A program made the translations under genes and the position numbers. From Eledone cirrhosa (Eukaryota), in assembly GCA_964016885.1 (NCBI GenBank), contig OZ024740.1, positions 393,824,001 through 393,888,000 on the forward strand: 64,000 nucleotides of DNA, in the 5' to 3' direction. The notes beneath the pieces were generated by a model. It was given only the letters and a program-made list of their open reading frames with translations, did not search any database and was not told the origin of the DNA. Shown piece after piece: positions 12,317 to 60,795 of the stretch. Each line of letters opens with the position of its first letter. Within the stretch, counting starts at the first letter, position 1.

Positions 12317-12491
12317 GAGGATAGTAGACGTGTGTCATATCGCTCTGTGATTTGGATTTTTACCTGCTAATTTTGTGAGTGGATTTTTTTGAATTATTTT
12401 GTATAATTAACTGTAACCCCTAGTCTGGGACTCTAGACGTCGGGTAAATATATTTTCACCCCTTTTGGGGTGAAAAATAATTATTTGAGAA

Positions 12492-14243: not shown

Positions 14244-14266
14244 GTGCCTCTTTCTTTGCCACCAAC

Positions 14267-17704: not shown

Positions 17705-17924
17705 GTGGAACAGAAAGAAGGGAGCACCCCTCTTTGTACTCCCGTGGAGAAGGGTCGCACACTTTTTTCGGGGGTGTGTGTGATCCCAAAACGATCCCTC
17801 CCTATTGAGGATCTTCTTGTTATTATTTTGTTTGTTATATTTTTCTTACTCGATTTTTATGTAAACTCCCCCCACCCATGTACATGTCCCTTTCTTTTGT
17901 GCCCTAGTGGCAAATAAACAGAAA

Positions 17925-17956
<32 letters not shown>

Positions 17957-18130
17957 AGGATAGTAGACGTGTGTCATATCGCTCTGTGATTTGGATTTTT
18001 ACCTGCTAATTTTGTGAGTGGATTTTTTTGAATTATTTTGTATAATTAACTGTAACCCCTAGTCTGGGACTCTAGACGTCGGGTAAATATATTTTCACCC
18101 CTTTTGGGGTGAAAAATAATTATTTGAGAA

Positions 18131-19737: not shown

Positions 19738-19760
19738 GTGCCTCTTTCTTTGCCACCAAC

Positions 19761-22700: not shown

Positions 22701-23144
22701 CAGTGCTACCGAGGGGCTCTGCCCGTTCGGGATAAGCTCTACAGACACGGGCGCCCGGGTAGGGACCCCTCGAAAAAGATCTGTCCCAGATGCGTGCGCG
22801 ACGAGGAAACCGTCGCGCACGCATTGGTGCACTGCCCGGGCGTTGCCGATCTGTGGGGCTATGTTGAACAACTGCTGTCACGGGTGGGACCAATTAGGTT
22901 GACCACCGAGTCCATTGTAACGATCAAGCCGCCTCCCCCCTTCAAAAATGAAGGAGAGGCGGTCTTCCTCTGTGTAATAGCCATGGTAAAAGAGGCTATA
23001 TGGTGGACGCGTCTGAAAGGGCTGAGGTCGGACACCTTTCTCTCCGGCCAACAACTGGTCCTTTTCTTCCGATACCATTTCGGAAGAAGGATCAGGATGG
23101 AGAGAGAGGTGCTCCACTCCAGCCAGTTTATGAAAGGTGGGTGA
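19761..23144 (+). CDS. ORF2p (APE-RT), C-terminus altered by a 1-nt deletion near 23127
   Basis: Same motifs as copy 1; CAGTTTATG versus CAGTTTTATG. Confidence 0.88.
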   Translation: MAVLRVGCLNARGLGSPWKQAKLLSDLRSQCVNVMVICEARISSMRQLAPTFDNFEMHASLCQPGGGGGVVVLLQKHLGLATQTVHLDPEGRLVVLDLGNGEGEAFRLVAVYAPFRAMRSDFFHRLETFLGTSRSLLLVGDWNGILDARWDYVGACPDRGGCNSLKGLIGRFDLADRYRLDFPTVPTWTWSNNSGQSRSYLDRFLVRIKDRDFLSCPEMLMVGYSDHKLVTCVVHLDRTHRQGPGYWKLNLSLPASRAYRDRIRTLVKEQLTGAIVNNRWWGSLKREIRVVSIGVSKELASDRNRKERELVVNVEEAMRSGNVARVQASRTVLNQFFDAKHEGCVVRSKIRALGNEGTKAVSWARVTEAKSGIKSTIRSLRDQDGRLILEPKQMCEAFQRHFAELFGRGGEPVGDVDFGPYLDGLPRLSDREARSCDGPISAAEIGDVLSLCGKRKSPGLDGLPYELYINMPDLFPDLLEAVYCNWQQNGRIPCSVTKGVVSLVRKDENKGDDISNFRPITLLNAELKILAKVLAKRLALVVGGLVGDAQTCAIPSRSIHDNLHLMRYIIERVGNEPGFGGALINLDQSKAFDRVDHVYLDAVLAAAGFGPVFRGWITAMHSSRICSRIKVNGYLSEPFEITRSIRQGCPLSSLLYVLTLEPLLRKLELLQGIPLEPGLRKAVSAYADDVTVMVSTASEIEAIGTLLEEYERLTGAKLNRDKSVALQLGEWRGKAMSCDGIVGRWTEGPVKLLGVWFGPDLQVEKNWGEVTNRVFALTQKWAECKLSLKGRAEVANAYIASVIYYRLTVVPCPGEILAKMERALFYFLWKKRSPLVRRSICCQHPLKGGLGMPWLKMRKHALRLRHLHVFLTGQPVWAPFVRRAFPRLVSLTELQSWVKQRPRKLGDWHTECAQALTALWQADPAIDGDSTSSFYRGLVVSGCDDALGEALGMEEDELASLFGRTFGPGPMDNFQKSLAWQCYRGALPVRDKLYRHGRPGRDPSKKICPRCVRDEETVAHALVHCPGVADLWGYVEQLLSRVGPIRLTTESIVTIKPPPPFKNEGEAVFLCVIAMVKEAIWWTRLKGLRSDTFLSGQQLVLFFRYHFGRRIRMEREVLHSSQFMKGG

Positions 23145-23630
23145 AAGTTGCGAGAATGGCCCGTGTGAATGGGCCTTCTCTCTACCTCAGCCTGTAGGTG
23201 GAACAGAAAGAAGGGAGCACCCTCTCTTTGTGCTCCCGTGGAGAAGGGTCGCACACTTTTTTTCGGGGGTGTGTGTGACCCCAAAACGATCCCTCCCCTA
23301 TTGAGGACCTTCTTGTTATTATTTTGTTTGTTATATTTTTCTTACTCGATTTTTATGTAAACTCCCCCCACCCATGTACATGTCCCTTTCTTTTGTGCCC
23401 TAGTGGCAAATAAACAGAAATTTGTCTGTCTGTCTGTCTGCCTGGCTGTCTGTCTGAGGATAGTAGACGTGTGTCATATCGCTCTGTGATTTGGATTTTT
23501 ACCTGCTAATTTTGTGAGTGGATTTTTTTGAATTATTTTGTATAATTAACTGTAACCCCTAGTCTGGGACTCTAGACGTCGGGTAAATATATTTTCACCC
23601 CTTTTGGGGTGAAAAATAAATATTTGAGAA

Positions 23631-25382
23631 ATGTTTATCGATATCGTTGATAACGATATCGTCGAAAACGATATCGCCATATTGGAAGCGAACGCCACGC
23701 CGACCAAAAAAACAAGCGGGAAAGAGGGAACAACAGTTCAAACTGTTGAACAACCCCTCCTCTCCAATGAAAAAAAGAATTTCAATTCAAATGAAAAAAT
23801 TAATTTTCAAGAAAAAAATAACACCACAAATAAGGAAACCAACAACATTACAACAACAAACAAAGACAAAATTTCTTTTGCCCAAACACTCAAGAGAGCC
23901 ACGGAGTACAAAGCCATTGACATCACGAACGCCAAGGAAAATTTGCTAGAGGCTAGAAAATACGTATCTTTTGGGGTGGATGGTTCCTTTACGATCAACT
24001 CCCCAGAAGAAGTGCGTGAACAGATTTACAAGAATACCGTAAGCTTCAGAACCATAACCAACGAAACGAGAAAGCCAGCGCAATTGACCGAAAGTCAAAT
24101 CGAGCTGGTTCTGAAAGAAATTAAAAATGACATACTCTTTATTCAAAGAGGAAAGCTGTATGCCAGCATTATGGTCCGAATGAAGGACGAAATGCTGGCT
24201 CAGAAATATTCGGTGGCACCTATAGTGTCACCACAATACACCTTCTTCCCCACATATAAAGGAAGAAGAACACAAAGGATAAGAATGTGGAGCCCTACGC
24301 CAGAAATTAACATCTGGTCCGTCCTAACAGGATTTACCGACCTAGATAAGGACATACTAATTTCAGCAGGGGAGTCCACCAGTGGACTGTTCGGGGGGAA
24401 AAGTCTGGAGGTTCTCTTACAGATGACACCTGAGAGAATCTCCGGAATACCCGACCGAGTGCTACTGGATGGGCGAACCTACATAAATATCACAGTGGAA
24501 GGCAGGAGACCCTCATGTTACCACTGCGCTGGCAGAGGTCACCTGAGGACGGCCTGCCCTCTACTAACAACTAAAAAACCACTGCTACAAACACCACAAC
24601 AACAACAAAAACAACCAGCACCACCATCACAAAAACAACAAAATACACTACCATCTCCACCAGAACAACAAAAACCAACAACACCACCACCACCACAACA
24701 ACAACAACATCAACAACAGCTCAAGAAAACAACCCAAAACACGGTCCCACCCAGCCCCACCCCACAGAACACAAATACAAAAACAGTTCATACACAACCC
24801 GGAGATATACCCCTCCCCTCCAATACGGAAGAGGAGCTCATATCGTCGGAAGACGAGGGGGCTCCCTTCCAAAAAGTGAAAAGAAAAAAACGTACACACA
24901 CCACAACAACAAAAATAACCCCACCTGACAACACAACACAGACAATAAAACGCAAACTCACTCAACAACAACAAGCAAAAACAAACACAACAACACAAAA
25001 ACTCTACACATACATAAACAAAAACAATGAAAACCTAACTTTAAAAATAGAAACCAACCCTTCGATACAAACCGAAGGGCCGAATTTCGTAACGGCAATG
25101 GGGCTCCCTAACCTGAAAATGGTGAAAATCCCACTTGACATTTTTAAAACTTTAAAAGACATGTACCCTGAGGACGTGGGCCCACCCTGCACCAGGCCAC
25201 TCAACCGCGTCCTCCTGAAAGGTTTTCCCCTCCCCTCCTCAAACACCCACACAACTCCAAAGATCCCAACCCCTCCACACACCAATACCCCCACACCACC
25301 ACAAACCACCACCCCACCCATCAACCCCGCCACCAGCCCCATGGAAACTGAGCGACCCGAACCCCGGGACGCAGAGAGGTAA
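23631..25382 (+). CDS. LINE ORF1p (583 aa)
   Basis: Matches copy 1 ORF1 except VHTQ versus VQTQ. Confidence 0.9.
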   Translation: MFIDIVDNDIVENDIAILEANATPTKKTSGKEGTTVQTVEQPLLSNEKKNFNSNEKINFQEKNNTTNKETNNITTTNKDKISFAQTLKRATEYKAIDITNAKENLLEARKYVSFGVDGSFTINSPEEVREQIYKNTVSFRTITNETRKPAQLTESQIELVLKEIKNDILFIQRGKLYASIMVRMKDEMLAQKYSVAPIVSPQYTFFPTYKGRRTQRIRMWSPTPEINIWSVLTGFTDLDKDILISAGESTSGLFGGKSLEVLLQMTPERISGIPDRVLLDGRTYINITVEGRRPSCYHCAGRGHLRTACPLLTTKKPLLQTPQQQQKQPAPPSQKQQNTLPSPPEQQKPTTPPPPQQQQHQQQLKKTTQNTVPPSPTPQNTNTKTVHTQPGDIPLPSNTEEELISSEDEGAPFQKVKRKKRTHTTTTKITPPDNTTQTIKRKLTQQQQAKTNTTTQKLYTYINKNNENLTLKIETNPSIQTEGPNFVTAMGLPNLKMVKIPLDIFKTLKDMYPEDVGPPCTRPLNRVLLKGFPLPSSNTHTTPKIPTPPHTNTPTPPQTTTPPINPATSPMETERPEPRDAER

Positions 25383-25405
25383 GTGCCTCTTTCTTTGCCA
25401 CCAAC

Positions 25406-28400
25406 ATGGCTGTCTTAAGAGTGGGTTGTCTAAATGCGCGTGGCCTGGGCTCACCTTGGAAGCAAGCTAAACTTCTAAGTGACCTCAGGTCACAATGTGT
25501 AAATGTGATGGTTATTTGCGAGGCCCGGATCAGCAGCATGCAACAGCTAACCCCCACCTTTGATGACTTTGAGATGCACGCATCTCTCTGTCAGCCCGGA
25601 GGTGGGGGTGGGGTTGTCGTTCTGCTGCAAAAACATCTGGGTCTCGCTACACAGACGGTACACTTGGACCCGGAGGGTCGACTCGTGGTTCTGGACCTTG
25701 GCAATGGCGAAGGCGAAGCTTTTAGGCTTGTCGCCGTATACGCCCCTTTTGGGGCAATGCGGTCGGACTTCTTCCATCGTCTGGAGACTTTTCTAGGGAC
25801 GTCCCGCTCCTTGCTTTTAGTGGGGGACTGGAATGGTATCCTAGATGCACGTTGGGACTATGTAGGGGCATGTCCCGATAGAGGGGGGTGTAACAGCCTT
25901 AAGGGGTTAATCGGCCGATTCGACCTGGCCGATAGATACCGACTAGATTTTCCGACTGTACCAACCTGGACCTGGTCAAATAACAGTGGTCAATCTAGAT
26001 CGTACCTAGATAGGTTCTTAGTTAGAATTAAGGATAGGGACTTTTTAAGTTGTCCAGAAATGCTCATGGTGGGCTATTCAGACCACAAGTTAGTGACCTG
26101 CGTAGTCCACCTTGATAGAACGCATAGGCAGGGGCCCGGTTACTGGAAGCTCAACTTGTCCTTACCGGCAAGTAGAGCCTACAGGGACCGGATTAGAACC
26201 TTAGTTAAGGAGCAGTTGACGGGCGCCATCGTCAACAACAGGTGGTGGGGCTCTCTAAAAAGAGAGATTAGAGTAGTTTCAATAGGAGTTAGTAAGGAGT
26301 TAGCCTCAGATAGAAATAGGAAGGAAAGGGAGTTGGTAGTTAATGTTGAAGAGGCAATGAGAAGCGGCAACGTGGCCAGAGTGCAAGCGTCGAGAACGGT
26401 CTTGAACCAGTTCTTCGACGCGAAACACGAAGGCTGCGTTGTCCGAAGCAAAATACGTGCTCTGGGAAACGAGGGGACCAAAGCTGTTAGCTGGGCCCGC
26501 GTGACAGAAGCGAAAAGTGGGATTAAATCCACTATCCGGTCTTTGCGAGACCAGGATGGACGGCTGATCCTTGAACCTAAGCAAATGTGCGAGGCCTTTC
26601 AAAGGCACTTTGCCGAATTGTTCGGGAGGGGCGGGGAGCCGGTTGGAGATGTGGATTTCGGTCCATACCTCGACGGCCTGCCGCGTCTTTCGGACGGGGA
26701 GGCGAGGTCCTGCGACGGGCCGATCTCAGCTGCTGAAATAGGGGACGTGCTGAGCCTATGCGGCAAACGCAAATCTCCAGGACTCGATGGTCTGCCCTAC
26801 GAACTATATATTAATATGCCGGACTTGTTCCCCGATCTCCTCGAGGCGGTCTACTGCAACTGGCAACAGAACGGGAGAATTCCCTGTTCTGTGACCAAGG
26901 GCGTAGTCTCGCTAGTGAGGAAGGACGAGAACAAGGGGGATGACATTAGTAATTTTAGGCCCATAACTCTGCTAAATGCAGAGTTAAAGATTTTGGCGAA
27001 GGTGTTAGCGAAGAGGTTGGCGCTTGTCGTGGGGGGCCTGGTGGGAGATGCGCAGACATGCGCTATCCCGTCCAGGTCCATCCACGACAACCTCCACCTC
27101 ATGCGATACATCATAGAGAGGGTTGGGAACGAACCCGGCTTTGGTGGGGCCCTGATAAATTTAGATCAGTCTAAAGCGTTCGATAGGGTGGACCATGGTT
27201 ACCTGGATGCGGTGCTAGCGGCGGCTGGGTTCGGACCCGTTTTCAGGGGCTGGATCACTGCCATGCACAGCAGCCGCATCTGCTCTAGAGTCAAGGTGAA
27301 CGGCTACCTTTCGGAGCCGTTCGAAATCACCCGCTCCATCCGACAGGGGTGCCCTCTCTCCTCCCTTCTGTATGTGTTGACTCTCGAGCCATTACTGCGG
27401 AAGTTGGAGTTGTTGCAGGGCATCCCTTTGGAACCGGGATTGCGCAAAGCGGTGTCGGCCTACGCCGATGACGTAACAGTAATGGTGTCGACCGCCTCGG
27501 AAATCGAGGCGATCGGCACCTTACTAGAGGAGTACGAAAGGTTGACAGGGGCTAAGCTGAACCGGGACAAGTCAATCGCTTTGCAACTCGGCGAGTGGAG
27601 GGGCAAAGCGATGTCGTGCGACGGTATCGTCGGACGGTGGACGGAGGGCCCGGTGAAGCTGCTTGGGGTCTGGTTCGGACCGGACCTCCAGGTGGAGAAA
27701 AACTGGGGTGAGGTGACGAATAGGGTGTTTGCACTGACCCAGAAGTGGGCCGAGTGCAAACTATCCCTAAAAGGTCGGGCGGAGGTGGCGAACGCTTACA
27801 TAGCGTCCGTCATCTATTACCGCTTGACTGTCGTGCCTTGCCCGGGTGAGATCCTCGCCAAAATGGAGCGCGCCCTCTTTTATTTCCTTTGGAAGAAGAG
27901 GTCTCCTCTAGTGAGGAGATCCATCTGCTGTCAACACCCTTTGAAAGGAGGGCTGGGGATGCCGTGGCTAAAAATGCGTAAACACGCATTGAGGCTAAGG
28001 CACCTCCACGTATTCCTCACCGGTCAACCGGTGTGGGCCCCGTTTGTGAGGCGAGCCTTCCCGAGGCTCGTCTCGCTCACCGAGCTGCAGTCCTGGGTGA
28101 AGCAAAGACCGAGAAAACTGGGCGACTGGCACACCGAGTGTGCCCAGGCGCTCACGGCTCTCTGGCAGGCGGACCCGGCTATCGACGGAGACTCCACCTC
28201 GTCATTCTATAGAGGGCTGGTGGTTAGCGGGTGCGACGACGCCCTCGGAGAAGCCCTAGGCATGGAGGAGGACGAACTGGCCAGTCTATTCGGTAGGACT
28301 TTCGGCCCGGGACCTATGGACAACTTCCAGAAGTCCTTGGCCTGGCAGTGCTACCGAGGGGCTCTGCCCGTTCGGGATAAGCTCTACAGACACGGGCGCC

Positions 28401-28843
28401 CGGGTAGGGACCCCTCGAAAAAGATCTGTCCCAGATGCGTGCGCGACGAGGAAACCGTCGCGCACGCATTGGTGCACTGCCCGGGCGTTGCCGATCTGTG
28501 GGGCTATGTTGAACAACTGCTGTCACGGGTGGGACCAATTAGGTTGACCACCGAGTCCATTGTAACGATCAAGCCGCCTCCCCCCTTCAAAAATGAAGGA
28601 GAGGCGGTCTTCCTCTGTGTAATAGCCATGGTAAAAGAGGCTATATGGTGGACGCGTCTGAAAGGGCTGAGGTCGGACACCTTTCTCTCCGGCCAACAAC
28701 TGGTCCTTTTCTTCCGATACCATTTCGGAAGAAGGATCAGGATGGAGAGAGAGGTGCTCCACTCCAGCCAGTTTTATGAAAGGTGGGTGAAAGTTGCGAG
28801 AATGGCCCGTGTGAATGGGCCTTCTCTCTACCTCAGCCTGTAG
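25406..28843 (+). CDS. LINE ORF2p APE-RT-CCHC (1145 aa)
   Basis: All catalytic motifs intact. Confidence 0.97.
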   Translation: MAVLRVGCLNARGLGSPWKQAKLLSDLRSQCVNVMVICEARISSMQQLTPTFDDFEMHASLCQPGGGGGVVVLLQKHLGLATQTVHLDPEGRLVVLDLGNGEGEAFRLVAVYAPFGAMRSDFFHRLETFLGTSRSLLLVGDWNGILDARWDYVGACPDRGGCNSLKGLIGRFDLADRYRLDFPTVPTWTWSNNSGQSRSYLDRFLVRIKDRDFLSCPEMLMVGYSDHKLVTCVVHLDRTHRQGPGYWKLNLSLPASRAYRDRIRTLVKEQLTGAIVNNRWWGSLKREIRVVSIGVSKELASDRNRKERELVVNVEEAMRSGNVARVQASRTVLNQFFDAKHEGCVVRSKIRALGNEGTKAVSWARVTEAKSGIKSTIRSLRDQDGRLILEPKQMCEAFQRHFAELFGRGGEPVGDVDFGPYLDGLPRLSDGEARSCDGPISAAEIGDVLSLCGKRKSPGLDGLPYELYINMPDLFPDLLEAVYCNWQQNGRIPCSVTKGVVSLVRKDENKGDDISNFRPITLLNAELKILAKVLAKRLALVVGGLVGDAQTCAIPSRSIHDNLHLMRYIIERVGNEPGFGGALINLDQSKAFDRVDHGYLDAVLAAAGFGPVFRGWITAMHSSRICSRVKVNGYLSEPFEITRSIRQGCPLSSLLYVLTLEPLLRKLELLQGIPLEPGLRKAVSAYADDVTVMVSTASEIEAIGTLLEEYERLTGAKLNRDKSIALQLGEWRGKAMSCDGIVGRWTEGPVKLLGVWFGPDLQVEKNWGEVTNRVFALTQKWAECKLSLKGRAEVANAYIASVIYYRLTVVPCPGEILAKMERALFYFLWKKRSPLVRRSICCQHPLKGGLGMPWLKMRKHALRLRHLHVFLTGQPVWAPFVRRAFPRLVSLTELQSWVKQRPRKLGDWHTECAQALTALWQADPAIDGDSTSSFYRGLVVSGCDDALGEALGMEEDELASLFGRTFGPGPMDNFQKSLAWQCYRGALPVRDKLYRHGRPGRDPSKKICPRCVRDEETVAHALVHCPGVADLWGYVEQLLSRVGPIRLTTESIVTIKPPPPFKNEGEAVFLCVIAMVKEAIWWTRLKGLRSDTFLSGQQLVLFFRYHFGRRIRMEREVLHSSQFYERWVKVARMARVNGPSLYLSL

Positions 28844-29065
28844 GTGGAACAGAAAGAAGGGAGCACCCTCTCTTTGTGCTCCCGTGGAGAAGGGTCGCAC
28901 ACTTTTTTTCGGGGGTGTGTGTGACCCCAAAACGATCCCTCCCTATTGAGGACCTTCTTGTTACTATTTTGTTTGTTATATTTTTCTTACTCGATTTTTA
29001 TGTAAACTCCCCCCACCCATGTACATGTCCCTTTCTTTTGTGCCCTAGTGGCAAATAAACAGAAA

Positions 29066-29067
<2 letters not shown>

Positions 29068-29136
<69 letters not shown>
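29068..29136. repeat. (TGTC)n, right flank of the Tx1 array
   Basis: Direct reading. Confidence 0.95.
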
Positions 29137-38320: not shown

Positions 38321-39202
38321 ATATCTGGAGATCTCTCTGCACTTGTCGTCACATGGTACCATGGGCCCAGCACTATGTGTCAATAATTGCCACAAGTGTA
38401 GTGTTTGTACCAGAGTTTTCAAGTCGCTGGCTGGACTAAAAAGTCACACTCGTTCAGCGCATCGGTAGGGGTTCTCCTACATGGATATAAAGTAGTGGCC
38501 GTACTCGAAAACGAGTTGGCAGCCAACATGTATGTATGTATGTATCCATGTTTGTATGTCACCTTTTCTTTTAATTTCGAGTTTATATTTTGACTGACCA
38601 CTTTCTCGTATCAAGGCTGTACAGGAAAAGGCATTTTCCTCGTCCCTTGGACAATCGTTCATCTTTTGGATTGTAAGAATGTTTTATAGATTTTGAAGGG
38701 TCTCCATATTGTGGCCATTTTTAGCTTACGAATTCTAGCGCTAAGTCATTTTTCTGCAAAACGAAGTTTCGTCATAATTTGGTCCAGACCGGTTCGTATC
38801 CTGTATCGCCGATAATAATGGATATGAAACTGAGCATCTATCTTGGGTATTAGATCTGCAAATTCCTCGCCTCATTCTCTTGTATTTTTCTTACAGCATT
38901 GACATTTGAGTAGGTAGCTGACTTCTACCACAAGTCATGTGTTTAATGCGTTTATCAAAACAACATCAGGCCGGCTGTTTTGGTTTGGTAGTAGTTTGTA
39001 TTTTTAAGTTCCACCAATATGCCTTTGAGCCATCAGTCTCAATACTTTCCCCCGTATTAGTTGTTAGTTACATCTTCCGTAGAGCATTTCAAATATATCT
39101 GACTACCAAGGCCTTTCATCACTTAAAGAAAGCTATAAGCACAGGCATCACTTGATCTAAACCTCTTTTATATTTCGCTACAGCATATGCAGAAGTAAAT
39201 AT

Positions 39203-42200
39203 ATGTTTCTTTATTAGCCACAGGGGCACAAAAGAAGGGAACAAATACAAATGGGGAAATTTACATACAATAAAAACGTGTAAAATATTATCACAAATGC
39301 AATTTAAAAATTAGTCGATTTTCCCCAATAGGGGGAGACATTACATATGGGTAACACATACCCCCCGAAAAAAAAATGTGCAACCCTCATCTCCAGGAGT
39401 ACGAAGAGTTTGTACTCCCTTCCTCGCCTCCTCTTTTCCCTCAACCTACAGGCTGATATAGAGAGAAGGCCCATTCCCTCGGGCCATTCTCGCCACTTTC
39501 ACCCACCTTTCATAAAACTTGCTGGGGGACAGCACCGCTCTCTCCATCCTGATTCTTCTTCCAAAGTGGTATTTGAAAAAAAGAATCAGTTGTTGGCCGG
39601 AGAGAAAGGTGTCTGACCTCAGCCCTTTCAACCTTGTCCACCATACAACCTCTTTCGCCATAGCTATCACACAAAGGAAAACCACCTCTCCTTCGTTTTT
39701 GAAGGAGGGTGGCGGTTTGATCATGACAATGGACTCGGTGGTTAACCGGATTGGTCCCACCCGCGACAATAGTCGTTTCACATAGCCCCACAGGTCGGTG
39801 ACGCCCAGAGTTTTACCGAGCACGTTGTCGCACTTGCTGCGGATCAACCCTCTATAGAATGACGAAGTGGAGTCTCCACTGATCGCTGGGTCCGCCTGCC
39901 AGAGGGCTGTGAGCGCCTGAGCACATTCGATGTGCCAGTCGCCCATTTTCCTCGGTCTTTGCTTGACCTAGGACTGCAGCTCGGTCAGCGAGACGAGTCG
40001 TGGGAAGACTCGCCTCACGAATGGGGCCCACACCGGTTGTTCGGTGAGGAATACGTAGAGATGCCGCAGCCTGAGCGCGTGTTTGCGCATCGTCAGCCAC
40101 GACATCCCCACCCCTCCGTTGGGAGGGTGTTGGCAGCAGATGGATCTTCTCACGAAAGGAGCCCGCCTCTTCCAAAGGAATTGGAGGAGCGCGCGCTCCA
40201 TTTTGGCGAGCGTTTTGGCTGGACAAGGCACAACGGTCAAGCGGTAGTAGATAGCGGTAGTAAAGACCGAATGGTGGACTTGTTGCCACCTTTGGCCTCC
40301 GTCACTCGGGCCCAGCTAACAGCTTTGGCTCCCTCGTTTCCCAGAGCACGTATTTTGCTTCTGAAAAACGTAGCCCTCATGCTTTGCGTCGAAGAACTGG
40401 TCCAAGGCCGTTCTCGTTGCTAGCACGCTGGCTACGTTGCCACTTCTAATTGCCTCTTCTACTTTATCTCCCAGTTCTTTCTCGGTTCTATTTCTATTTA
40501 ACGTTAATTCTTTACTAAAAACTAACGAGTCGAATCTAACTGCCCTCTTGAGAGAGTACCACCTTCTGTTGTTGACAATGGCCCCTGTCAAGTGCTGTTT
40601 AACTAAAGTGCTAATCCGTCTACTGTAGGCTTTGCATGTCGGTAACGACAAGTTTAGCTTCCAGTAGCCGGGTCCTTGTCTATGGGTTCTATCAAGGTTG
40701 ACTATGCAGATCACTAGTTTGTGATCTGAATAGGCAACCATGAACATTTGTGGACAGCTTAACATGACCCTATCCTTATTTCTAACTAGAACCCTATCTA
40801 GGTACGATCTAGATGTTCCACTGCGATTAGCCCACGTCCACAGTGGCACAGTCGGAAAATCTAGTCGATATCTATCGGCCAGGTCAAATCGGCCAATTAA
40901 CTGTTTGAGGATTTTACACCCCCCCCCTTTATCGGGACGTGCTCCCACATAGTCCCAACGTGCATCTAGGATTCCATTCCAGTCCCCCACTAAAAGCAAG
41001 GAGCGGGACGTTCACAGATAAGTCTCTAGACGCTTGAAGAAGTCTGGCCGCGGTGTCCCGGATGGGGCATATGCGGCCACCAGTCTGAAGGCTCCACCTT
41101 CACTACCGTCAACGTCTAGGACCACCAGTCGACCCTCCGGATCCAGATGTACTGTCTTTGTTACGAGGCCCAGGTGTTTCCGCAGCAAAACGGCAACCCC
41201 GCCCCCTCCCCTCGGCCGACAGAGAGATGCGTAGATCTCAAAGTCATTGAAGATGGGGGTCAGCTGTCGCTCGCTGTGGCTCCTAGACTCACAAATGGCT
41301 ACTACATCCATACTGTTCGACCTGAGGTCGTTTAAGGGTTTTCCCTGTTTCCAGGGCATCCCCAGGCCGCGTACATTCACACACCCAACTCTTATATTGG
41401 CCATGTTGGTTCTGAAAAGTTAAAAGAGGAGAAGAAAACACTCACCTCTTCGTCTTCCGGGGACCAGGCCGCACGGTTTCCATGGGGGTGTTAGAGGGGT
41501 TGTCTGGGTGGGTGGTGGTTTCCGGCGGAGTGGGGACGGAGATGTTTGGTGGGGTTGGGGTGTCTGGGATGGGTGTGTCTGGGGTGAGGCTGGGGAAACT
41601 TTTTAAAAGGACGCGGTTAATGGGTTTAACACAAGGATTACCCACGTCCTTAGGAAAGTTTTGCTTTAAAGATTTATAGGTGTCCGTAGGGAGCCTAATC
41701 ATCTTTAAATTAGGTTTGTCTACACATTTCGACAAAGTTTTCCCTTCGGTTTTCACCGAAGGGTCGTTGGAGATGACCTCCATTAAAGTTTTGTTTTTAC
41801 TCTTTATGTATGTGTAATGTTCTTGTGTTGCGGTGGTTTTTGTCTGTTGTTCTTGTGGGAGCTTTCGTTTTGTTGTAGGTGTTTGTGTTTGGAGTGATGT
41901 CGTGGTTTTGTTTTCGGGACGGGGGGTTTTTGTTTGTAATGTTTGTGTTGTTTGTGTTGGTGGTTGTATGTTTGTAGTGATATGTGTTGTTTTTTTGTTC
42001 TTGTGGTGTCTTTTCTTCTTTCTTTTCGAACGGAGAGGCTCTCCCTCATCATCACTTGGTGTCTGTGTTATTTGGAAGGGGTATGTTTTGGGAAGCTGTT
42101 CTGTTTGTGGGTGTTTTTGCAGTGGCTTTAGGTGGAGTGGGGTTGGGTGGGACTGTGCTTTCATGTTTGTTTGTTGTTCTTGATTTGGTTGTGTTTGCTT

Positions 42201-42962
42201 CTTGTTGTTGTTGTTGTTGTTGTGGTGGTGGTGGTGGTAGTGGTTGTGTGGTTGTTTTGGGTGTTGGCAGTAGTACCTCTTTTTTTCTTTAGTTAACTGA
42301 GGACAGTAAGCGTTTAGGTGACCACTGCTTGTACCATTGAATGTGCCTCTGGAGGACTTTCCCACCGAAATGATGGTGTCTTCGTCGAAATCGATGAAGC
42401 CAGTTAGAATCCACCAGACGTTTACATTTGGTGCAATGTTCGAAATTTTTATTTTTTGTGTTCTTTTTCCCATATATGTGGGGAAAAAGGTGTAAAGGTG
42501 GGACACAATCGGCGATACAGAATATTTTTGTGCTGTCAATTGGTCTTTCAACAACACCGAAATGCTTCCAAAAAGTTTCCCTTTTTGGATGAAGGCAATA
42601 TCCTTCATAGAATTCTTCAGAACCAGTTCAATATCGTTTTGGGATAATTGAACTGGTTTTTTCGACACATTTGAAACCGTCCTAAAAATTACTATTTTTA
42701 GAACAGTTTCTCTGCGTAACTGTTGAGGAGAAGTGATGCTGAAAGCACCACTCTCACCAAAAGCTACGTACTGTTTTGCATCGCTTAACATTTCCCTCGC
42801 ATTGGAAATGTCAAGGTATGTGAACAGGTCCGTCTTTTGGACGGTTTGAGCAAAGGAAATCTTCTCCTTGTTCGTGGAGTTGTTCGTGTTGCTGTTGTTG
42901 TTGGTGGTGTTGTTTTTATCATTGTTGTTGTTGTTGGTGGTGGTGTTGTTGTTATCATTGTT
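39203..42962 (-). mobile_element. Tx1 family B copy, 5'-truncated, with several internal deletions (RT domain lost)
   Basis: ORF1 remnant 41442-42791, APE remnants 41012-41404 and 40316-40999, C-terminal remnants 39446-40240; 3'UTR matches 57516-57759. Confidence 0.92.
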
Positions 42963-43060
42963 GCTAAGTCCTTTGCAAGGCTAAAAAATCACATTCATGT
43001 CATCCATGCACGAGAAAAGCGCAAGTGATGGCAATTCTCGAAATTATGATGCAGCCATCA
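42963..43060 (+). mobile_element. 3' tip of an RTE related to the 33.9 kb element
   Basis: KSFARLKNHIHVIH resembles the last finger RSLAGLKSHIRSQH; then GATGGCAATTCTCG..GCAGCCATCAT and TATGTATG. Confidence 0.55.
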
Positions 43061-52015: not shown

Positions 52016-52914
52016 ACAACCGCTCCGTTTCAGTGGTTGGGCTTCAGGTGAGCGACCTGTTCCCGGAAAAACTCTCCTGCTACGAAAGAAATTCATAGTG
52101 CATCAGATTCAAATTCCAAGACTGTAGGATGTAAGTTAAATGTGGCTGGGCTGCTATTTCTAGCACGTCGAGCAATTGCATAAAATATTTCCCTTGTTGC
52201 CTCTTGGGTCTTGTTTGTTGCTGTTGTTGTTGATAATCCTATTTTTTTTTTTACTCGAATAGAACCTTGATCAAAGGCGTTTTGGCCATGACCATCCATC
52301 TCATCATTTTCTATAGCCAAGACTATATTGTCGCACGTGTTTTAATTCTTTAAGGAATTCCTAATAATATCCCCTTATCCCTTCATTTTTATTTCTAGTT
52401 TTGGTTTTGTTTGAAATGGTTTATGGTTTATTTTCGTAGGAAAACAAAAAAATGATTACATGGGGCAAGGTTCAGGTAATTATGGAATATCTACTGTGGA
52501 AAAATGTTCTCTTTTTTTTTCATAACTGCAAATGATACGATGACATTTCAACAGTGAATGAGAAGAATGTGGAAATGGAACTTAAAGCAGCTGAACACTT
52601 CTGGAATTATTTCTGAAATAGATAACAATGTTATGAGAAACATATATCATTTTGGTGGGTGCCTGGAAAAAATGTTCACAGAGACAACTCGTGGAAAAAA
52701 TAAAACATTGGAAAGAAAAAGAAACTCATGAAAAATCAACACAAAACATTTTCTTGCATCATATATATATATTTAAAAAAAATGAAAAAATCTGTTTGAA
52801 TTCCTCCTCTTTCTCACTATTTCAATCTCATTATCTAAATGTCTGTCTGTATTTCAAGCTATCTGTCTATCTAACTATCCATCTATCTAGCTAGTTATCT
52901 ATCTATCTATCTAT

Positions 52915-55900
52915 CAAAAAATAAAAATTTCGAACATTGCACCAAATGTAAACGTCTGGTGGATTCTAACTGGCTTCATCGATTTCGACGAAGACACCAT
53001 CATTTCGGTGGGAAAGTCCTCCAGCGGCATATTCAATGGTACAAGCATGGAAGTTCTGGTCCAAATGAGGCCAGAACGGATAGCTAAAATACCCCAACGT
53101 ATGCCTCTGGATAGAATTTCACACATAAACATTTCTGTTGAGGGTAAGCCTTCATGTTATCACTGTTTAAGCAGTGGTCACCTAAAGGCTTACTGTCCTC
53201 AGTTAATTAAAAAAAAAAAGAGGCACTACTGCCAACACCCAAAACAACAACACAACCACCACCACCACTACCACCACAACAACAACAACAACATGCATAC
53301 ACAACCAAAACAAGAACAACAAACCAACCTGCAAGCACAGTCCCACCCAACCCCACTCCACCTAAAACCACTGCAAAAACACCCACAAACAGAACAGCTG
53401 CCCAAAACATACCCCTTCCAAATAACACAGACACCACAACGGACGAGGCCCTCACATCATCACCAAGTGATGATGAGGGAGAGCCTCTTCGTTCGAAAAG
53501 AAAGAAGAAAAGACACCACAAGAACAAAAAAACAACAAACATCACTACAAACATACAACCACCAACACAAACAACACAAACATTACAAACAAAAAACCCC
53601 ATCGCGAAAACAAAACCACGTCATCACTCCAAACACAAACACCTACAACAAAACGAAAGCTCCCACAAGAACAACAGACAAAAACCACCGCAACACAACA
53701 AGAACATTACACATACATAAAGAGTAAAAACAAAACTTTAATGGAGGTCATCTCCAACGACCCTTCGGTGAAAACCGAAGGGAAAACTTTGTCGAAATGT
53801 GTAGACAAACCTAATTTAAAGATGATTAGGGTTCCTACGGACATTATAAGTCTTTAAAGGAAAACTTTCCTAAGGACGTGGGTAATCCTTATGTTAAACC
53901 CATTAACCGCGTCCTTTTAAAAAATTCCCCCACCCTCACCCCAGACACCCCAACCCCAGACACTCAACCCCACCAAACATCTCCGTCCCCACCCCACCGG
54001 AAACCACCACCCACCTAGACAACCCCTCTAACACCCCCATGGAAACAGTGCGGCCTTGTCCTCGGGAGACGAAGAGGTGAGTGTTTTCTTCTCCTCTTTT
54101 AACTTTTCAGAACCAACATGGCCAATATAAGAGTTGGGTGTGTGAATGTACGCGGCCTGGGGATGCCCTGAAAACAGGGAAAACTCTTAAACGACCTCAG
54201 GTCGCACAGTATGGATGTAGTAGCCATTTGTGAGTCTAGGAGCCACAGCGAGCGACAGCTGGCCCCCATCTTCGATGACTTTGAGATCTACGCATCTCTC
54301 TGTCGGCCGGGGTGGGTGCGGGGTTGCCGTTTTGCTGCGGAAACACCTGGGCCTCGTAACACAGACGGTACATCTGTACCCGGAGGGTCGACTGGTGGTC
54401 CTAGACGTTGACGGTAGTGAAGGTGGTGCCTTCAGGCTGGTGGCCGCATATGCCCCATCTGGGACACCGCGGCCAGATTTCTTTAAACGTCTAGGGACTT
54501 TTCTGGGAACGTCCCGCTCCTTGCTTTTAGTGGGGGACTGGAATGGAATCCTAGATGCACGTTGGGACTATGGGGGAGCATATCCCGATAAAGGGGGGGG
54601 GGGGGGGAGGGTGTAACAGCCTCAAACAGTTAATCGGCCGATTTGACCTAGCCGATAAATATCGACTAGATTTTCTGACTGTGCCACTGTGGACGTGGAC
54701 TAGTCGTGGCGGAACATCTAGATCGTACCTAGATAGGGTTCTAGTTAGAAATAAGGATAGGGTCATGTTAAGCTGTCCACAAATGTTCATGGTTGCCTAT
54801 TCAGATCACAAACTAGTGACCTGCATAGTCAACCTTGATAGAACCCATAGACAAGGACCCGGCTACTGGAAGCTGAACTTGTCGTTACCGACATGCAAAG
54901 CCTACAGTAGACGGATTAGTTAAACAGCACTTGACTGGGGCCATTGTCAACAACAGATGGTGGTACTCTCTCAAGAGGGCAGTTAGAATAGACTCATTAG
55001 TTTTTAGTAAAGAATTAGCGTTAGATAGAAATAGAACCGAGAAAGAACTGGGAGATAAAGTAGAAGAGGCAATTAGAAGTGGCAACGTAGCCAGCGTGCT
55101 AGCAACGAGAACGGCCTTGGACCAGTTCTTAGACGCAAAGCATGAGGGCTGCGTTGTCAGAAGCAAAATACGTGCTCTGGGAAACGAGGGAGACAAAGCT
55201 GTTAGCTGGGCCCGAGTGACGGAGGCAAAAAGTGGCAACAAGTCCACGATTCGGTCTTTGAAGGACCAAAACGGACGCGTGAGACGTGAACCGAAGCAGA
55301 TGTGTGCGGCATTTCAGCGGCACTTTGCTCAACTGTTCGGACAGGGCGGCGCGCCGGGAGGGGCTATGGTTTTCGGTCCATACCTCGACGGCGTACCGCG
55401 ACTCTCGGACAGCGAGGCAAAGTTCTGCGAAAAGCCGATTTCAGCCGCTGAGATAGGGGACGCGCTGAGCCAATGCTGCAAACGCAAATCTCCAGGTATC
55501 GACGGTCTACCCTACGAAATTTACGTAGCAATGCCGGACTTATTCTCCGGTTTCCCGGAAGCGGTCTACTGCAACTGGCAACAGAACGGGAGAATTCCCA
55601 GTCCTGTGACCGGGGGCGTAGTCACACTAGTCAGGAAGGACGAGAATAAGGGGGATGACATAGGCAACTTCCGGCCCATAACTCTGCTAAACACAGAGTT
55701 ACAGATTTTGGCCAAGGTGTTTGCAAAGAGGCTGGCGCTTGTCGTCGAGAACCTGGTGGGAGTGGCGCAGACATGCGCAATCCCGATCAGGTCCATACAC
55801 GACAACCTCCACCTTATGCGATACATCATAGAGAGGGTAGGGTGCAAACCCGGCTTCGATGGGGCCCTGATCAACTTGGATCAGTCTAAGGCTTTCGATA

Positions 55901-57758
55901 GGGTTGACCATCATTACCTGGAAGCGGTGCACGAGGCGGCAGGCTTCGGACTCGTGTTCAGGGGCTGGATTGCTGCAATGCACAACAGCAACATCTACTC
56001 AAGGGTTAAGGTGAACGGCTACCTCTCGGAGCCGTTCCATATCACGCGATCCATTCGACAGGGATGCCCTCTCTCCTCCCTTCTGTACGTACTCACTCTC
56101 GAGCCACTACTGCGGAAGTTGGTGCTATTGCAGGGCATCCTTCTGGAACCGGGACTGCGGAAAACGGCGTCGGCCTACGCCGACGACGTGACGGTTATGG
56201 TGTCGAGCGCCTCGCAAATCGAGGAAGTCGGCACCTTACTGAGGGAATACGAAAGGTTCACAGGAGCGAAGCTGAACCGGGACAAGTCCATCGGTTTGCA
56301 ACTCGGATCGTGGAGAGGCAAACCGATGCCTTCCGATAGCGTCGTAGGACGCTGGACGGAAGGACCAGTAAAGCTGCTCGGGGTCTGGTTTGGTCCGGAC
56401 CTCCAGGTGGAGAAGAACTGGAACGAGGTGTCGGCCAGGGTGTTTGCACTCACCCAGAAGTGGGCCGAGTGCAAAATATCCTTGAAAGGTCGAGCGGAGG
56501 TGGCGAACACTTTTATAGCGTCCACCATCTACTACCGCTTGACCGTCGTGCCAAAACGCTCGCCAAAATGAATCGCGCGCTCTTCCAATTCCTTTGGAAG
56601 AGGCGGGCTCCTTTGGTGAGAAGATCCATCTGCTTCCAACACCCTCCCAACGGAGGGGTGGGGATGCCGTGGCTGACGATGCGCAAACACGCGCTCAGGC
56701 TGCGGCATCTCTACGTTCCTTACCGGACAACCGGTGTGGGCCCCGTTCGTGAGGCGAGCCTTCCCACGACTCATCTCGCTGACCGAGCTGCAGTCCTGGG
56801 TCAAGCAAAGACCGAGGAAAATGGGCGACTGGCACATCGAATGTGCTCAGGCGCTCACAGCCCTCTGGCAGGCGGACCTGGCGATCAGTGGAGACTCCAC
56901 TTCGTCATTCTATAGAGGGTTGATCCGCAGCAAGTGCGACGACTGCTCGGTGAAACCCTGGGCGTAGAGGAAGACGAACTGGCCAGACTGTTCGGTAGGA
57001 CCTTCGGCCCGGGACCGATGGACAACTTCCAAAAGTCCCTGGCCTGGCAGTGCTACCGAGGTGCTCTACCAGTTCGAGACAAGCTCTACAGACATGGGCG
57101 CTCGGGCAGGGACCCTGTAAAAAAGAAATCGTTGCGCACGCCTTCATACACTGCCCGGGCGCCACCGACCTGTGGGGCTATGTAGAACGACTATTGTCGC
57201 GGGTGGGACCAATCCGGTTCACTACCGAGACCATTGTGATGATCAAACCGCCACCCTCCTTCAAAAACGAAGGAGAGGCGGTTTTCCTTTGTGTGATAGC
57301 TATGGCGAAAGAGGTTGTATGGTGGACAAGGTTGAAAGAGCTGAGGTCAGACACCTTTCTCTCCGGCCAACAACTGATTCTTTTTTTCAAATAGCACTTT
57401 GGAAGAAGAATCAGGATGGAGAGGGAGGTGCTGTACCCCAGCAAGTTTTATGAAAGGTGGGTGAAAGTGGCGAGAATGGCCCGAGTGAATGGGCCTTCTC
57501 TCTATATCAGCCTGTAGGTTGAGGAAAAAGAGGAGGAGTGGAAAGGAGTACAAACTCTTCGTACTCCTGGAGATGAGGGTTGCACATTTTTTTTTCGGGA
57601 GTATGTGTTACCCATATGTAATGTCTCCCCCTATTGGGGAAAATCGACTAATTTTTAAATTGCATTTGTGATAATATTTTACACGTTTTTATTGTATGTA
57701 AACTTCACCCTTTGTATTTGACCCCTTCTTTTGTGCCCCTGTGGCTAATAAAGAAACA

Positions 57759-57759
<1 letters not shown>
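52915..57759 (+). mobile_element. Tx1 family B copy, truncated in ORF1 and frameshifted, in (TATC)n
   Basis: CYHCLSSGHLKAYC knuckle, APE and RT fragments (54931-56571 with YADD), AATAAAGAAACAT then (ATCT)n. Confidence 0.93.
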
Positions 57760-57830
<71 letters not shown>

Positions 57831-57831
<1 letters not shown>

Positions 57832-58140
57832 GGGCCTTCACTCTACATCAGACTATAGGTGAGGAAGATGGAAGATGGAAGATGAAAGATCAAGGGAGCA
57901 TCCCCTCTCTGTGCTCCTGAGGAGAAGGGTTGCACACTTTTTTCGGGGGTGTGTGCGACCCCCCAAGGCTCCTCCTCCCTTTTGAGGATTTGGGTATTCA
58001 ATTTATTTCGGTTATATTTTATATTTTATTTTTTATATCTTGTTATTGCCTCCTCCTTATTGAGGACGCCTTTTTATGTAAACTCCCCCATTGTACTTGT
58101 CCCACTTTTTCATGCCCTGGTGGCAAATAAAAAGAAAGTT
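57831..58140 (+). mobile_element. Tx1 3'-end fragment (variant D) between (ATCT)n tracts
   Basis: End of ORF2 plus homologous 3'UTR ending GCCCTGGTGGCAAATAAAAAGAAAGTT. Confidence 0.85.
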
Positions 58141-58164
58141 ATCTATCTATCTATCTATCTATCT

Positions 58165-58352
58165 AACAAAGAAAATGTAGTAATAAACCAAGTGGACCAT
58201 AACGCACCAGAGTACTCGATATTTAGGGTAGGTAGTAGAGTGGGCAATAGGAAAAGAGTCATGGCCCCGATGGCTGAGCTCTGGCCGTTTCGACAGTTAG
58301 CTCTAGCTGTCGAAATGGCCGGAGCTCAGCCCTCGGGGTTCTGACTCTTTTT
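58165..58352 (-). mobile_element. fold-back hairpin element (7592 family)
   Basis: Tail CCATAACGCACCAGAGTACTC..GTAGTAGAGTGGG and ~49-bp imperfect hairpin centred at 58301-58302. Confidence 0.7.
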
Positions 58353-58378
58353 CTATCCATCTATCTAGCTAGTTATCT

Positions 58379-59775
58379 CGGTCCAAACCTCCAGGTGGAG
58401 AAAAACTGGAACGAGGTCATGGCCAAGGTATTTGCGCTCACCCAGAAGTGGGCAGAGTGCAAACTGTCTTTGAAAGGTCGAGCGGACGTGGCGAACACTA
58501 TCATAGCGTCCGTCATCTACTACCGCTTGACTGTCGTGCCTTGTCCCCGTGAATACCTCACCGAGATGGAACGCATGCTCTTCCAGTTCCTGTGGAAGAA
58601 GCAGGCTCCACTGGTGAGGAGATCCGTCTGCTGTCAACACCCTTCCAACGGAGGGCTGGGCATGCCGTGGCTAATGATGCGCAAACATGCGCTGAGGCTA
58701 CGGCATCTTCAGGTATTCCTCACCGACGAACCGGTGTGGGCACCGTTTGTGAGACAGGCCTTCCCACAACTTGTCTCGCTGACGGAGCTGCAGTCCTGGG
58801 TCAAGTGAAGACCGAAGAAGATGGGCGTCTGGCACATTGAATGCGCCCAGGTGCTCACAGTCAAGCAGGCACAGCAATCAGTGGAGACTCCACTTCAAAA
58901 TTCTATAGAGGGTTAGTACTTTACAAGTGCGACGACGTGTTTGGGGAGACTCTAGGCGTCGAAGACGACGAGCTCACCAATCTGTTCAGTAGGACTTTCC
59001 GCCCGGTGCTTATGGACAGCTTCCAGAGGTCCTTGGCTTGGCAGTGCTACCGAGGAGCTCTACCCGTTCGAGATAAGATCTACAGGCACGGACGCCCCGG
59101 CAGGGATCCTTCCAAGAGGACGTGTCCAAGATGCGAGCAGGACATTGAAACCGTCTTGCACGCAATTGTACACTGCCCGGGCGTAAGCGACCTGTGGAAC
59201 TATGCAGAATAACTGCTGTCGCGTATGGGACAAATCCAGTTGACTGCCGAGTCCATAGTAAGGATCAAACCTCCAGCATCTTTCAAAAACGAAAGAGAGG
59301 CGGTTTCCCTCTGTACAGCGGCTATGGTGAAAGAGGTTATATGGTGGACGAGATTGAGAGGACTGACGACAGATGCCTTTCTCTCCGGACAACAATTGAT
59401 TGCCTTCTTTAAGTATCACTTTAGAAGAAGAATCAGAGTGGAGAGAGAGGCACTGCACCCCAGTAAATTTACTGAAAGGTGGGTGAATGAAGCGAAAGTG
59501 GCCCGAGTGATTGGGCCTTCTCTGTTTATAAGCCTGAAGGTTAAAGAAGAGAGCAAAAGGAAGAAGGGAGAACTTGCACAACACGCTCCTGAAGTTGAGG
59601 GTTGTTCTATCGACGGGGTATTAAACAACCCATTTGTGGCGTCTCCCCCCTATTGGGGAATTCGATTGTTATAATTGTTTGTTATATACTTTTTTTACAC
59701 GACTGTATGTAAAATCCCCGGCATATGTCTTTGTATTGTCCCATTTTCTTGTGCGCCCTTGTGGCAAATGAAGAA
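58379..59775 (+). mobile_element. Tx1 5'-truncated copy (variant C)
   Basis: EKNWNEV..QKWAECKLSLKGRA, CPRCEQDIETVLHAIVHC, with stops; ends GCCCTTGTGGCAAATGAAGAA-(ATCT)n. Confidence 0.9.
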
Positions 59776-59802
59776 ATCTATCTATCTATCTATCTATCTG
59801 TC

Positions 59803-60101
59803 GTTTTTATGAAAGGTGGGTGAAAGTGGCGAGAATGGCCCGTGTAAATGGGCCTTCTCTCTACATCAGCCTGTAGGTGGAAAAGAGGAAGGAATGAGGG
59901 AGCACCCTCTCTCTGTGCTCCCGGTGAGAAGGGGTTGCACACTTTTTTCGGGGGTGTGTGCGAACCCCCAAACGCCCCCTCCCTATTGAGGACTTTATTG
60001 TTAATTTTATATTTGTTATTTTTTTCTTTACTCGCCTTTTTGTGTAAACTCCCCCCTTGTATTTGTCCCCTTCTTTTGCGCCCTAGTGGAAATAAATAGA
60101 A
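59803..60101 (+). mobile_element. Tx1 3'-end fragment (variant E, close to family A) between (ATCT)n tracts
   Basis: TTTTATGAAAGGTGGGTGAAAG..GCCCTAGTGGAAATAAATAGAA-(ATCT)n. Confidence 0.88.
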
Positions 60102-60795
60102 ATCTATCTATCTATCTGTCTGACTATCTATCTATTTATTTATCCATCTATCTGTCTCTCGCTCTCACTCATATTCTTGCAGACGTATCTTTGAATCTAT
60201 GCATGTACGAATGAATGGATGTGTGTTGATATATATAAATTGATACACACACAAACGTATATTTTTTGTCTGTCTTTACAGACACAGGTGCGGCGTGCAC
60301 ACACAGGCACACAAAGAGAGAAATATTAGTTGGTAAGACAACTATCCTATATAGAATTCCACTAAAATGATCACACAGACATAACATCCAGTATTATACT
60401 CGGAAAAGTAAGACTTTTTAATCCGACGTTGATGATTATTATCAGCAATATCATCATTACTATGATTCTCGTTTCTTATTATAAAACGCAATAATATAAG
60501 GAAGCCACTAACAATTTTCTCATTTTGTGCATTAGACTGCAAATGTTTAGAAACATTGTTGAACCTCAGAACGTTGCTGTTCCAGACTAAACACGAAGGA
60601 ATGCGCACACAAACACACACATACACACATATACACACAAATACACACATACACACACACATACACATACACTTACACACACATACACACATGCACACAC
60701 ACACACACACATCACTCACACACACACACACATAACACCCAAATAATTAGCCAAGAAGTTATAGTGATTCAAAGGCCTAGAGATTCGTTCCCACG

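What the first reader, a model, noticed from the sequence alone, without database searches (positions are those of the whole stretch)
52875..60150. Second landing pad: four different Tx1 variants stacked in one (TATC)n/(GATA)n tract
B (52915-57759), D (57831-58140), C (58379-59775) and E (59803-60101) are co-oriented, each followed directly by ATCT repeats, with different truncation points and sequences. They cannot be a tandem duplication, so this is independent evidence of strand-specific microsatellite targeting, and shows a GATA versus GACA split within one lineage.
Basis: partly seen in the sequence, partly recalled or inferred. Interest (0 to 1): 0.75.

Follow-up and report, generated by a model that had tools for sequence, protein, structure and literature searches.

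The report
Octopus retrotransposons stacked in GATA repeat
Four different versions of one jumping-gene family have inserted one after another, all facing the same way, into a single old four-letter DNA repeat of an octopus-like genome: a known strategy (aiming at simple repeats) with a repeat target that I did not find described for this family.

Summary
Observation confirmed, with corrections. B, D, C and E are co-oriented, 5'-truncated Tx1-type LINEs, 62-79% identical at their 3' ends, so not a tandem duplication. Each joins ATCT repeats in the same register.

Corrections: (1) the tract is broken by a 187-bp unrelated hairpin repeat (X). (2) A 26-bp piece of the tract is duplicated around B-D-X. 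(3) A fifth relative, B' (39201-42978, minus strand, 4.2% from B), has no ATCT on either side, so targeting is a preference or B' lost its flanks. (4) The GACA side rests on one locus. The GTCT-flanked A copies nest inside the ATCT copies (AU p=0.007 against a B+B'+C clade). That means a late GATA-to-GACA switch or one degenerate (RTCT)n specificity, not two sister lineages.

Nearest named relatives are octopod; octopus RT clusters with the same motifs are published as L1-Tx1. Microsatellite-targeting Tx1 is known (Kibi, Koshi, crocodilian TTCC/TTTC). This target and a possible switch look new. The genome-wide test could not be run.

The parts
52841..52915 (+). Left part of an old degenerate (RTCT)n genomic microsatellite; 5' flank of B
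   Evidence: TRF 52859-52915, 81% matches; 4-mer register; no Tx1 upstream
52875..52900 (+). 26-bp tract segment S, left copy; candidate target-site duplication
   Evidence: Exact second copy at 58353; 4 non-periodic positions shared
52916..57759 (+). Tx1 copy B, 5'-truncated in ORF1, decayed ORF2 (10 breaks on projection to A)
57760..57831 (+). (ATCT)18 after B; landing site of D
57832..58140 (+). Tx1 copy D, last codons plus 3' UTR only
58141..58165 (+). (ATCT)6 after D
58166..58352 (+). Non-Tx1 dispersed repeat X with a ~110-nt terminal hairpin; interrupts the tract
   Evidence: Relatives at 7592-7780 (-), 62315-62495 and 45433-45566; fold z = -8.5
58353..58378 (+). Segment S, right copy; 5' flank of C
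58379..59777 (+). Tx1 copy C, starts at ORF2 aa 757, 7 breaks; the earliest-branching of the copies that could be rooted
59778..59802 (+). ATCT tail of C ending in GTC; landing site of E (GTC is a TSD marker or a 3-nt 5' microhomology)
59803..60103 (+). Tx1 copy E, last ~28 codons plus 3' UTR; 3' end closest to A (85%)
60104..60160 (+). Right part of the degenerate genomic tract (ATCT x4, then GTCT and further decayed units)
   Evidence: TRF 60102-60157, 82% matches
12284..29136 (+). Comparison locus: three full-length young A copies (12318-17927, 17957-23423, 23457-29068) separated by (GTCT)n; A1 and A3 have intact ORF1 and ORF2
39201..42978 (-). B', sibling of B (4.2% apart), four large internal deletions, no ATCT at either end; 5' boundary approximate

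Best explanation
An octopod Tx1-clade LINE lineage prefers (ATCT)n/(GATA)n microsatellites and inserts by target-primed reverse transcription in a fixed orientation. Shown: different subfamilies, different truncations, fixed strand and register, and 5' junctions on a pre-existing degenerate tract. Inferred from what is known of APE-type LINEs: the ORF2 endonuclease nicks the AGAT strand, and the freed 3' end primes on the element RNA. There is no poly(A) in any copy and AATAAA lies only about 5-7 nt before the repeat, so the RNA probably ends in a few read-through AUCU units that pair with the primer. Each insertion leaves repeat on both sides and so regenerates the target; later subfamilies landed in earlier tails (D beside B, E in C's tail). 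The young A subfamily is a derived branch now associated with GTCT (about even odds between a real one-base switch and one degenerate RTCT specificity). B' is an off-target insertion or lost its flanks by deletion.
For: 7 of 8 copies in the window sit in RTCT in the same orientation and register. 0 of 106 other microsatellite tracts adjoin a Tx1 end. B and C are preceded by degenerate genomic repeat, and the outer ends reconstruct one old tract. B and B' share the 3' end only through ATAT, after which B' has no ATCT, so a long tail is not an obligatory part of the element. The 26-bp duplicate with 4 private markers shows that target DNA was duplicated. Differences between A, B and C are concentrated at third codon positions (29-34% against 10-17%), so they diverged as active lineages. 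Rooted ORF2 tree ((A,(B,B')),C), support 98/99 and 100/100; AU p=0.0068 against a B+B'+C clade. 3' UTR trees group A with D and E in 3 of 3 alignments, support 82-95. Precedent for RNA-primer pairing: SART1Bm and R1Bm (PMC7265360, passages).
Against: B' lacks ATCT on both sides. One window, two occupied tracts; a third AGAT tract (4640-4661) is empty. The duplicated segment directly abuts X, so X rather than B or D may have made it. The GTC marker at E could be E's own sequence (it reads as Ser-Arg in frame). The AU test on 3' UTRs did not reject an ATCT clade B+B'+D+E (p=0.097). EN divergence between A and B relative to RT (ratio about 1.7) is within the outgroup range 1.4-1.9, so there is no sign of an endonuclease-specific acceleration. 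D, E and C carry no EN domain.
Confidence: 0.68

Rival explanations
1. One degenerate specificity, (RTCT)n = GAYA, shared by all subfamilies. A merely landed in a GTCT tract and there is no split. This rival accepts targeting and disputes only the switch.
For: Only one GTCT locus. The ATCT pad itself contains GTCT units, and E, the copy closest to A, landed at an ATCT/GTCT boundary. Waldo targets ACAY, a one-position degenerate repeat (PMC3812793, passages).
Against: All three A copies have pure GTCT tails and all four pad copies pure ATCT. A1 and A3 are more alike (15 substitutions) than either is to A2 (26 and 29), which fits repeated insertion into GTCT better than a simple duplication. The EN hairpin loop differs between A and B/B'.
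Confidence: 0.35
2. The repeat is only an element-encoded tail, and copies cluster because the region is a generic insertion hot spot or because new copies home to older tails.
For: The 3' register is fixed, as an encoded tail would give. D and E lie on earlier tails. If B or D made the S duplication, about 5 or more ATCT units before the right copy are not from the target.
Against: B and C follow degenerate repeat with no Tx1 3' end upstream. B' has no tail. The tract's outer ends are 81-82% decayed while the tails are perfect.
Confidence: 0.08
3. Passive accumulation: insertion is random and copies survive in or near microsatellites (proposed for Drosophila Waldo-A/B, PMC3812793 passages).
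For: The window is microsatellite-rich (about 4.0 of 36.7 kb non-Tx1), and other repeats also abut microsatellites.
Against: Class specificity (0 of 106 other tracts), fixed strand and base-exact register are not predicted.
Confidence: 0.04
4. The pad is a tandem duplication or an assembly that joined two haplotypes (S-B-D and X-S-C-E).
For: Segment S occurs twice, and the two halves each read S + two elements.
Against: The elements are 62-79% identical with different ends, so duplication is excluded for them. A haplotype join would still leave each half inserted in the same tract.
Confidence: 0.04

Closest known systems
Kibi (TC)n and Koshi (TTC)n, teleost Tx1 elements (Kojima and Fujiwara 2004, not seen; as cited in PMC4494074 and PMC3812793, passages)
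   Same: Tx1-clade APE LINEs inserted in microsatellites
   Different: Target here is a tetranucleotide ATCT/GTCT, host is an octopod; relationship to Kibi/Koshi not tested
Crocodilian Tx1 group 2, preferring (TTCC)n or (TTTC)n (PMC4494074 section 15)
   Same: Tx1; two tetranucleotide targets differing at one position within one group; preference rather than absolute specificity
   Different: Pure pyrimidine targets; no stacking of several subfamilies in one tract described in the section read
Waldo (ACAY) and Mino (AC) (PMC3812793, passages)
   Same: Microsatellite targeting with one degenerate position
   Different: Different motif; that they belong to the R1 clade is recalled, not from a call
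SART1Bm and R1Bm (PMC7265360, passages)
   Same: Endonuclease targeting helped by pairing of the RNA 3' end with the nicked strand; the mechanistic model used here
   Different: Telomeric repeat or rDNA targets; SART1 has poly(A); pairing is shown there and only inferred here
Octopus L1-Tx1 families (O. sinensis clusters 28, 100, 101, 103, 107, 18; O. bimaculoides 8, 9 in PMC10294476 supplements; 80 families in O. vulgaris, PMC13282606 supplement)
   Same: Share RT motifs with the window ORF2; classed L1-Tx1 by a published tree
   Different: No exact match to three A-specific motifs; no target preference in the passages seen

Membership tests
Tx1 clade (L1 group) | ORF2 with APE endonuclease, RT and C-terminal zinc motif | tested here: met
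   Pfam Exo_endo_phos, RVT_1 and zf-RVT on intact A ORF2 (EN above cut-off, zf-RVT just below); B, C and E align to it
Tx1 clade (L1 group) | ORF2 closest to L1 rather than R2 or other LINEs | tested here: met
   Profile of 30 sequences: L1 ORF2p 1e-174, R2 7e-52
Tx1 clade (L1 group) | ORF1 with RRM/CCHC knuckle instead of Transposase_22 (PMC5203782 passages) | tested here: met
   CX2CX4HX4C visible in A and B; zf-CCHC E=0.025, below the curated cut-off; Atlas neighbours carry zf-CCHC/RRM; no Transposase_22
Tx1 clade (L1 group) | RT phylogeny within Tx1 against labelled references | tested here: inconclusive
   No tree with labelled references was built. Indirect: 8 of 8 looked-up octopus clusters sharing RT motifs are L1-Tx1 in a published tree
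Tx1 clade (L1 group) | TPRT hallmarks: intact 3' end, variable 5' truncation, TSD | tested here: inconclusive
   3' ends intact in 8 of 8; truncation in B, C, D, E. TSDs are masked by periodicity; two candidates (S, 26 bp or more; E, up to 17 bp), each with an alternative reading
Target-specific family (Kojima 2015 criterion: one sequence type in more than 20% of flanks) | Flank enrichment over all genomic copies | not testable with these tools
   7 of 8 copies in this window; no eukaryotic genome collection available
Kibi / Koshi | Target (TC)n or (TTC)n | tested here: not met
   0 of 15 AG-class and 0 of 3 AAG-class tracts adjoin a Tx1 end
Kibi / Koshi | Monophyly with Kibi/Koshi RTs | not tested
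Waldo / Mino | Target ACAY or AC | tested here: not met
   0 of 18 ACAT-class and 0 of 20 AC-class tracts adjoin a Tx1 end

The most novel reading that the evidence does not exclude
Target choice in this lineage is partly inherited through RNA rather than protein. Each master copy transcribes a few units of the repeat it sits in, those units select the primer, and a master that lands in GTCT founds a GTCT-homing subfamily without needing an endonuclease change. The young A branch nested among older ATCT branches would be such a switch caught in progress, and stacked pads would record the order of subfamily waves.
Probability: 0.2. Interest if true: 0.72.

Novelty: new variant of a known kind. 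Interest (0 to 1): 0.45.

Why it matters
How site-specific LINEs change target is an open question; grafting one endonuclease loop did not transfer specificity in a modular way (PMC1950540, passages). Here closely related subfamilies (ORF2 74-86% identical by domain), one with two intact young copies, differ by one base in the repeat they occupy. That gives a natural pair for separating endonuclease effects from RNA-primer effects. It would also extend microsatellite-targeting Tx1 to cephalopods, where L1-Tx1 covers 56 Mb and includes 13 recently active families in O. vulgaris (PMC13282606), and it warns that GATA/GACA markers there may be insertion hot spots.

Tried and rejected
Tandem duplication of B/D/C/E: rejected (identities). 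Neutral decay of one family: rejected for A, B and C by third-position excess; not testable for D; E has only 24 codons and is about equally close to A and B there. TSD for B': the best match is an 8-mer at 43067, expected by chance in AT-rich DNA. EN-specific acceleration on the A-B path: not seen relative to RT; EN and linker are both about twice as diverged as the C-terminal part, a lead for a 5'/3' module swap only. Polarising A1/A2/A3 differences with B, B' and C was too noisy to order the array. Rfam at gathering thresholds: 0 matches in 64 kb, so X is unassigned. Names for cluster members were not obtained; Atlas gave only generic names for ORF2. A ZCCHC3-Tx1 link was not found in the library. 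Literature searches showed no Tx1 with a GATA/GACA target, but Repbase, Dfam, Kojima and Fujiwara 2004, Christensen 2000 (not held) and the supplements of PMC4494074 (none readable; its Fig. 3 lists targets and was not visible) could hold one. No fold or complex job was run, as neither would bear on DNA target choice.

Full report
Observation. The window holds eight copies of one LINE lineage: three full-length A copies at 12318-29068 separated by (GTCT)n, the four copies of the finding (B, D, C, E), and B' on the minus strand at 39201-42978. B, D, C and E are on the + strand, cut at different 5' points and followed by ATCT repeats. Over the last ~300 nt they are 62-79% identical. Differences between A, B and C are 2-3 times higher at third codon positions, so they are separate subfamilies and not a duplication or simple decay. 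B and B' differ by 4.2% over 3225 aligned bases, nearly evenly over codon positions, while the A copies differ by under 1%. The ATCT pad is therefore older than the GTCT array.

The tract is interrupted by X (58166-58352), a non-Tx1 repeat with three relatives in the window next to (TA)n and a strong terminal hairpin. A 26-bp piece of the degenerate tract occurs before B and again before C, sharing all 4 non-periodic bases. It is either a long target-site duplication made by B or D, with X arriving later, or a duplication made by X, which it directly abuts; I cannot decide. A 23-bp duplication for Xenopus Tx1L is recalled and comes from no call. E is bracketed by (ATCT)nGTC on both sides, which suggests a duplication of up to 17 bp, but GTC may also be E's own sequence acting as microhomology. 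B' ends exactly where B's body ends and has no ATCT within the flanks read; it has four large internal deletions, so its flanks may be secondary.

Target or tail. The 3' repeats cannot decide this, and neither can the 5' flanks of D, E, A2 and A3, which are earlier tails. The informative 5' junctions are A1, B, C and B': 3 of 4 lie in RTCT on the same strand. For B and C the flank is a decayed tract with no Tx1 upstream, and the pad's outer ends (81% and 82% matches) read as one old microsatellite. With RTCT covering 220 of 36,695 non-Tx1 bases, 3 of 4 has a binomial probability near 9e-7, or 1e-4 counted as 2 of 3 loci; both are post hoc and from one window. Among perfect tracts, 9 of 10 AGAT/ACAG-class and 0 of 106 others abut a Tx1 end. 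The 3' register is the same in 7 of 7 tailed copies. B' shows that a long tail is not obligatory. Targeting is well supported locally, as a preference.

GATA versus GACA. A rooted tree of ORF2 aa 757-1145 with 13 outgroup proteins gives ((A,(B,B')),C) with support 98/99 and 100/100, and a B+B'+C clade is rejected (AU p=0.0068). D and E lack this region. In 3' UTR trees they group with A in 3 of 3 alignments (support 82-95), E or D being A's sister, although an ATCT clade B+B'+D+E is not rejected there (p=0.097). So ATCT is most likely ancestral and GTCT appears once, on the young A branch, at one locus. A1 and A3 are more alike than either is to the middle copy A2, which favours repeated insertion into GTCT but does not prove it. 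The A and B-type endonucleases differ at 47 of 237 positions where B and B' agree, including N193R and Q196T in the segment aligning to the L1 hairpin loop T192-S202. EN divergence is not unusual relative to RT, and loop grafts were not modular in PMC1950540 (passages). A real switch and a degenerate RTCT specificity remain about equally open.

Identity. ORF2 has APE, RT and zf-RVT domains and its profile matches L1 ORF2p far better than R2; ORF1 has a CCHC knuckle. The nearest named protein among the 120 listed is from Argonauta hians, 68% over the RT region. In the supplements of PMC10294476 (files 19 and 23 searched; 12 of 33 files in the general search), all 8 octopus clusters I looked up after finding shared RT motifs are classed L1-Tx1; none matched three A-specific motifs exactly. 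The host is thus probably an octopod, and Tx1 membership is indirect but likely.

Mechanism. Inferred from APE-LINE biology: nick on the AGAT strand, priming on the RNA 3' end, variable 5' truncation, joining with 1-3 nt microhomology. AATAAA (AATGAA in C) lies about 5-7 nt before the repeat and no copy has poly(A), so the RNA probably carries a few read-through repeat units that pair with the primer, as reported for SART1Bm and R1Bm (PMC7265360, passages). Each insertion regenerates repeat on both sides, which explains stacking.

Comparison and novelty. Tx1 elements targeting microsatellites are known: Kibi (TC)n, Koshi (TTC)n and crocodilian families on (TTCC)n/(TTTC)n (PMC4494074, passages and section 15); Waldo uses ACAY (PMC3812793, passages). 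Octopus L1-Tx1 is known as abundant and partly active (PMC13282606, passages and supplement; PMC8967140, passages), with no target preference in the passages seen. Ten library searches showed no GATA/GACA-targeting Tx1, but Repbase, Dfam, Kojima and Fujiwara 2004 and the figure and supplements of PMC4494074 were not visible and could contain one. PMC5203782, PMC10294476 and PMC9004415 were seen as passages only.

Verdict. A real feature and a new variant of a known kind: a new target motif and host, a four-subfamily stack, and a testable candidate switch. Interest 0.45.

Noticed in passing
window 58166-58352; 7592-7780 (-); 62315-62495; 45433-45566: Repeat X: ~80 nt plus a ~110-nt terminal hairpin (z -8.5), next to (TA)n, (CT)n or (ATCT)n; no Rfam match; type unknown (MITE-, Helitron- or Penelope-derived are guesses).
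   Followed up: partly
window 7450-7591 and 7768-7911: Two 92%-identical direct copies of a ~90-bp MITE with GTGTCCC-type inverted ends in (TA)n tracts flank the X copy at 7592-7780: a second, TA-type landing pad or an X-made duplication.
   Followed up: partly
window 12284-29136: A array: A1 and A3 have intact ORF1 (584 aa stop to stop) and ORF2 and differ by 15 substitutions; middle copy A2 has a ~140-bp ORF1 deletion, a late frameshift and 20 private substitutions. A1's private changes cluster at the 3' end.
   Followed up: partly
window 39201-42978 (-): B' carries deletions of about 126, 29, 1260 and 197 bp relative to B; the large one has a short templated-looking insert at its junction.
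   Followed up: partly
window 33786-37920: A long open RTE-like LINE ORF (APE, RT, C2H2 fingers) flanked by (ATGT)13 on the 5' side and (ATGT)14 after its 3' end; its 3' UTR is interrupted by ~460 bp of stacked microsatellites. Possibly another repeat-targeted insertion.
   Followed up: no
window 32758-33119 versus 37965-38319: A 252-bp segment recurs inverted (98%) and an adjoining 106-bp segment recurs direct (96%) on either side of the RTE-like element.
   Followed up: no
window 50913-52029 (-): Frameshifted RT fragment of a different LINE, 27% to the Tx1 ORF2, 0.8 kb upstream of the pad.
   Followed up: no
window 1-4660, 9550-9900, 30920-31230, 46440-46650, 48910-49010, 50217-50480: Many copies of a SINE-like repeat, several nested or head to head; one is followed by an empty (AGAT)n tract at 4640-4661 and a 900-bp (TAG)n array.
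   Followed up: no
window 14267-17704 versus 54118-57520: A and B are about twice as diverged in EN and linker (d 0.27-0.30) as in the C-terminal part (0.16), unlike outgroups; a possible 5'/3' module exchange between subfamilies.
   Followed up: partly
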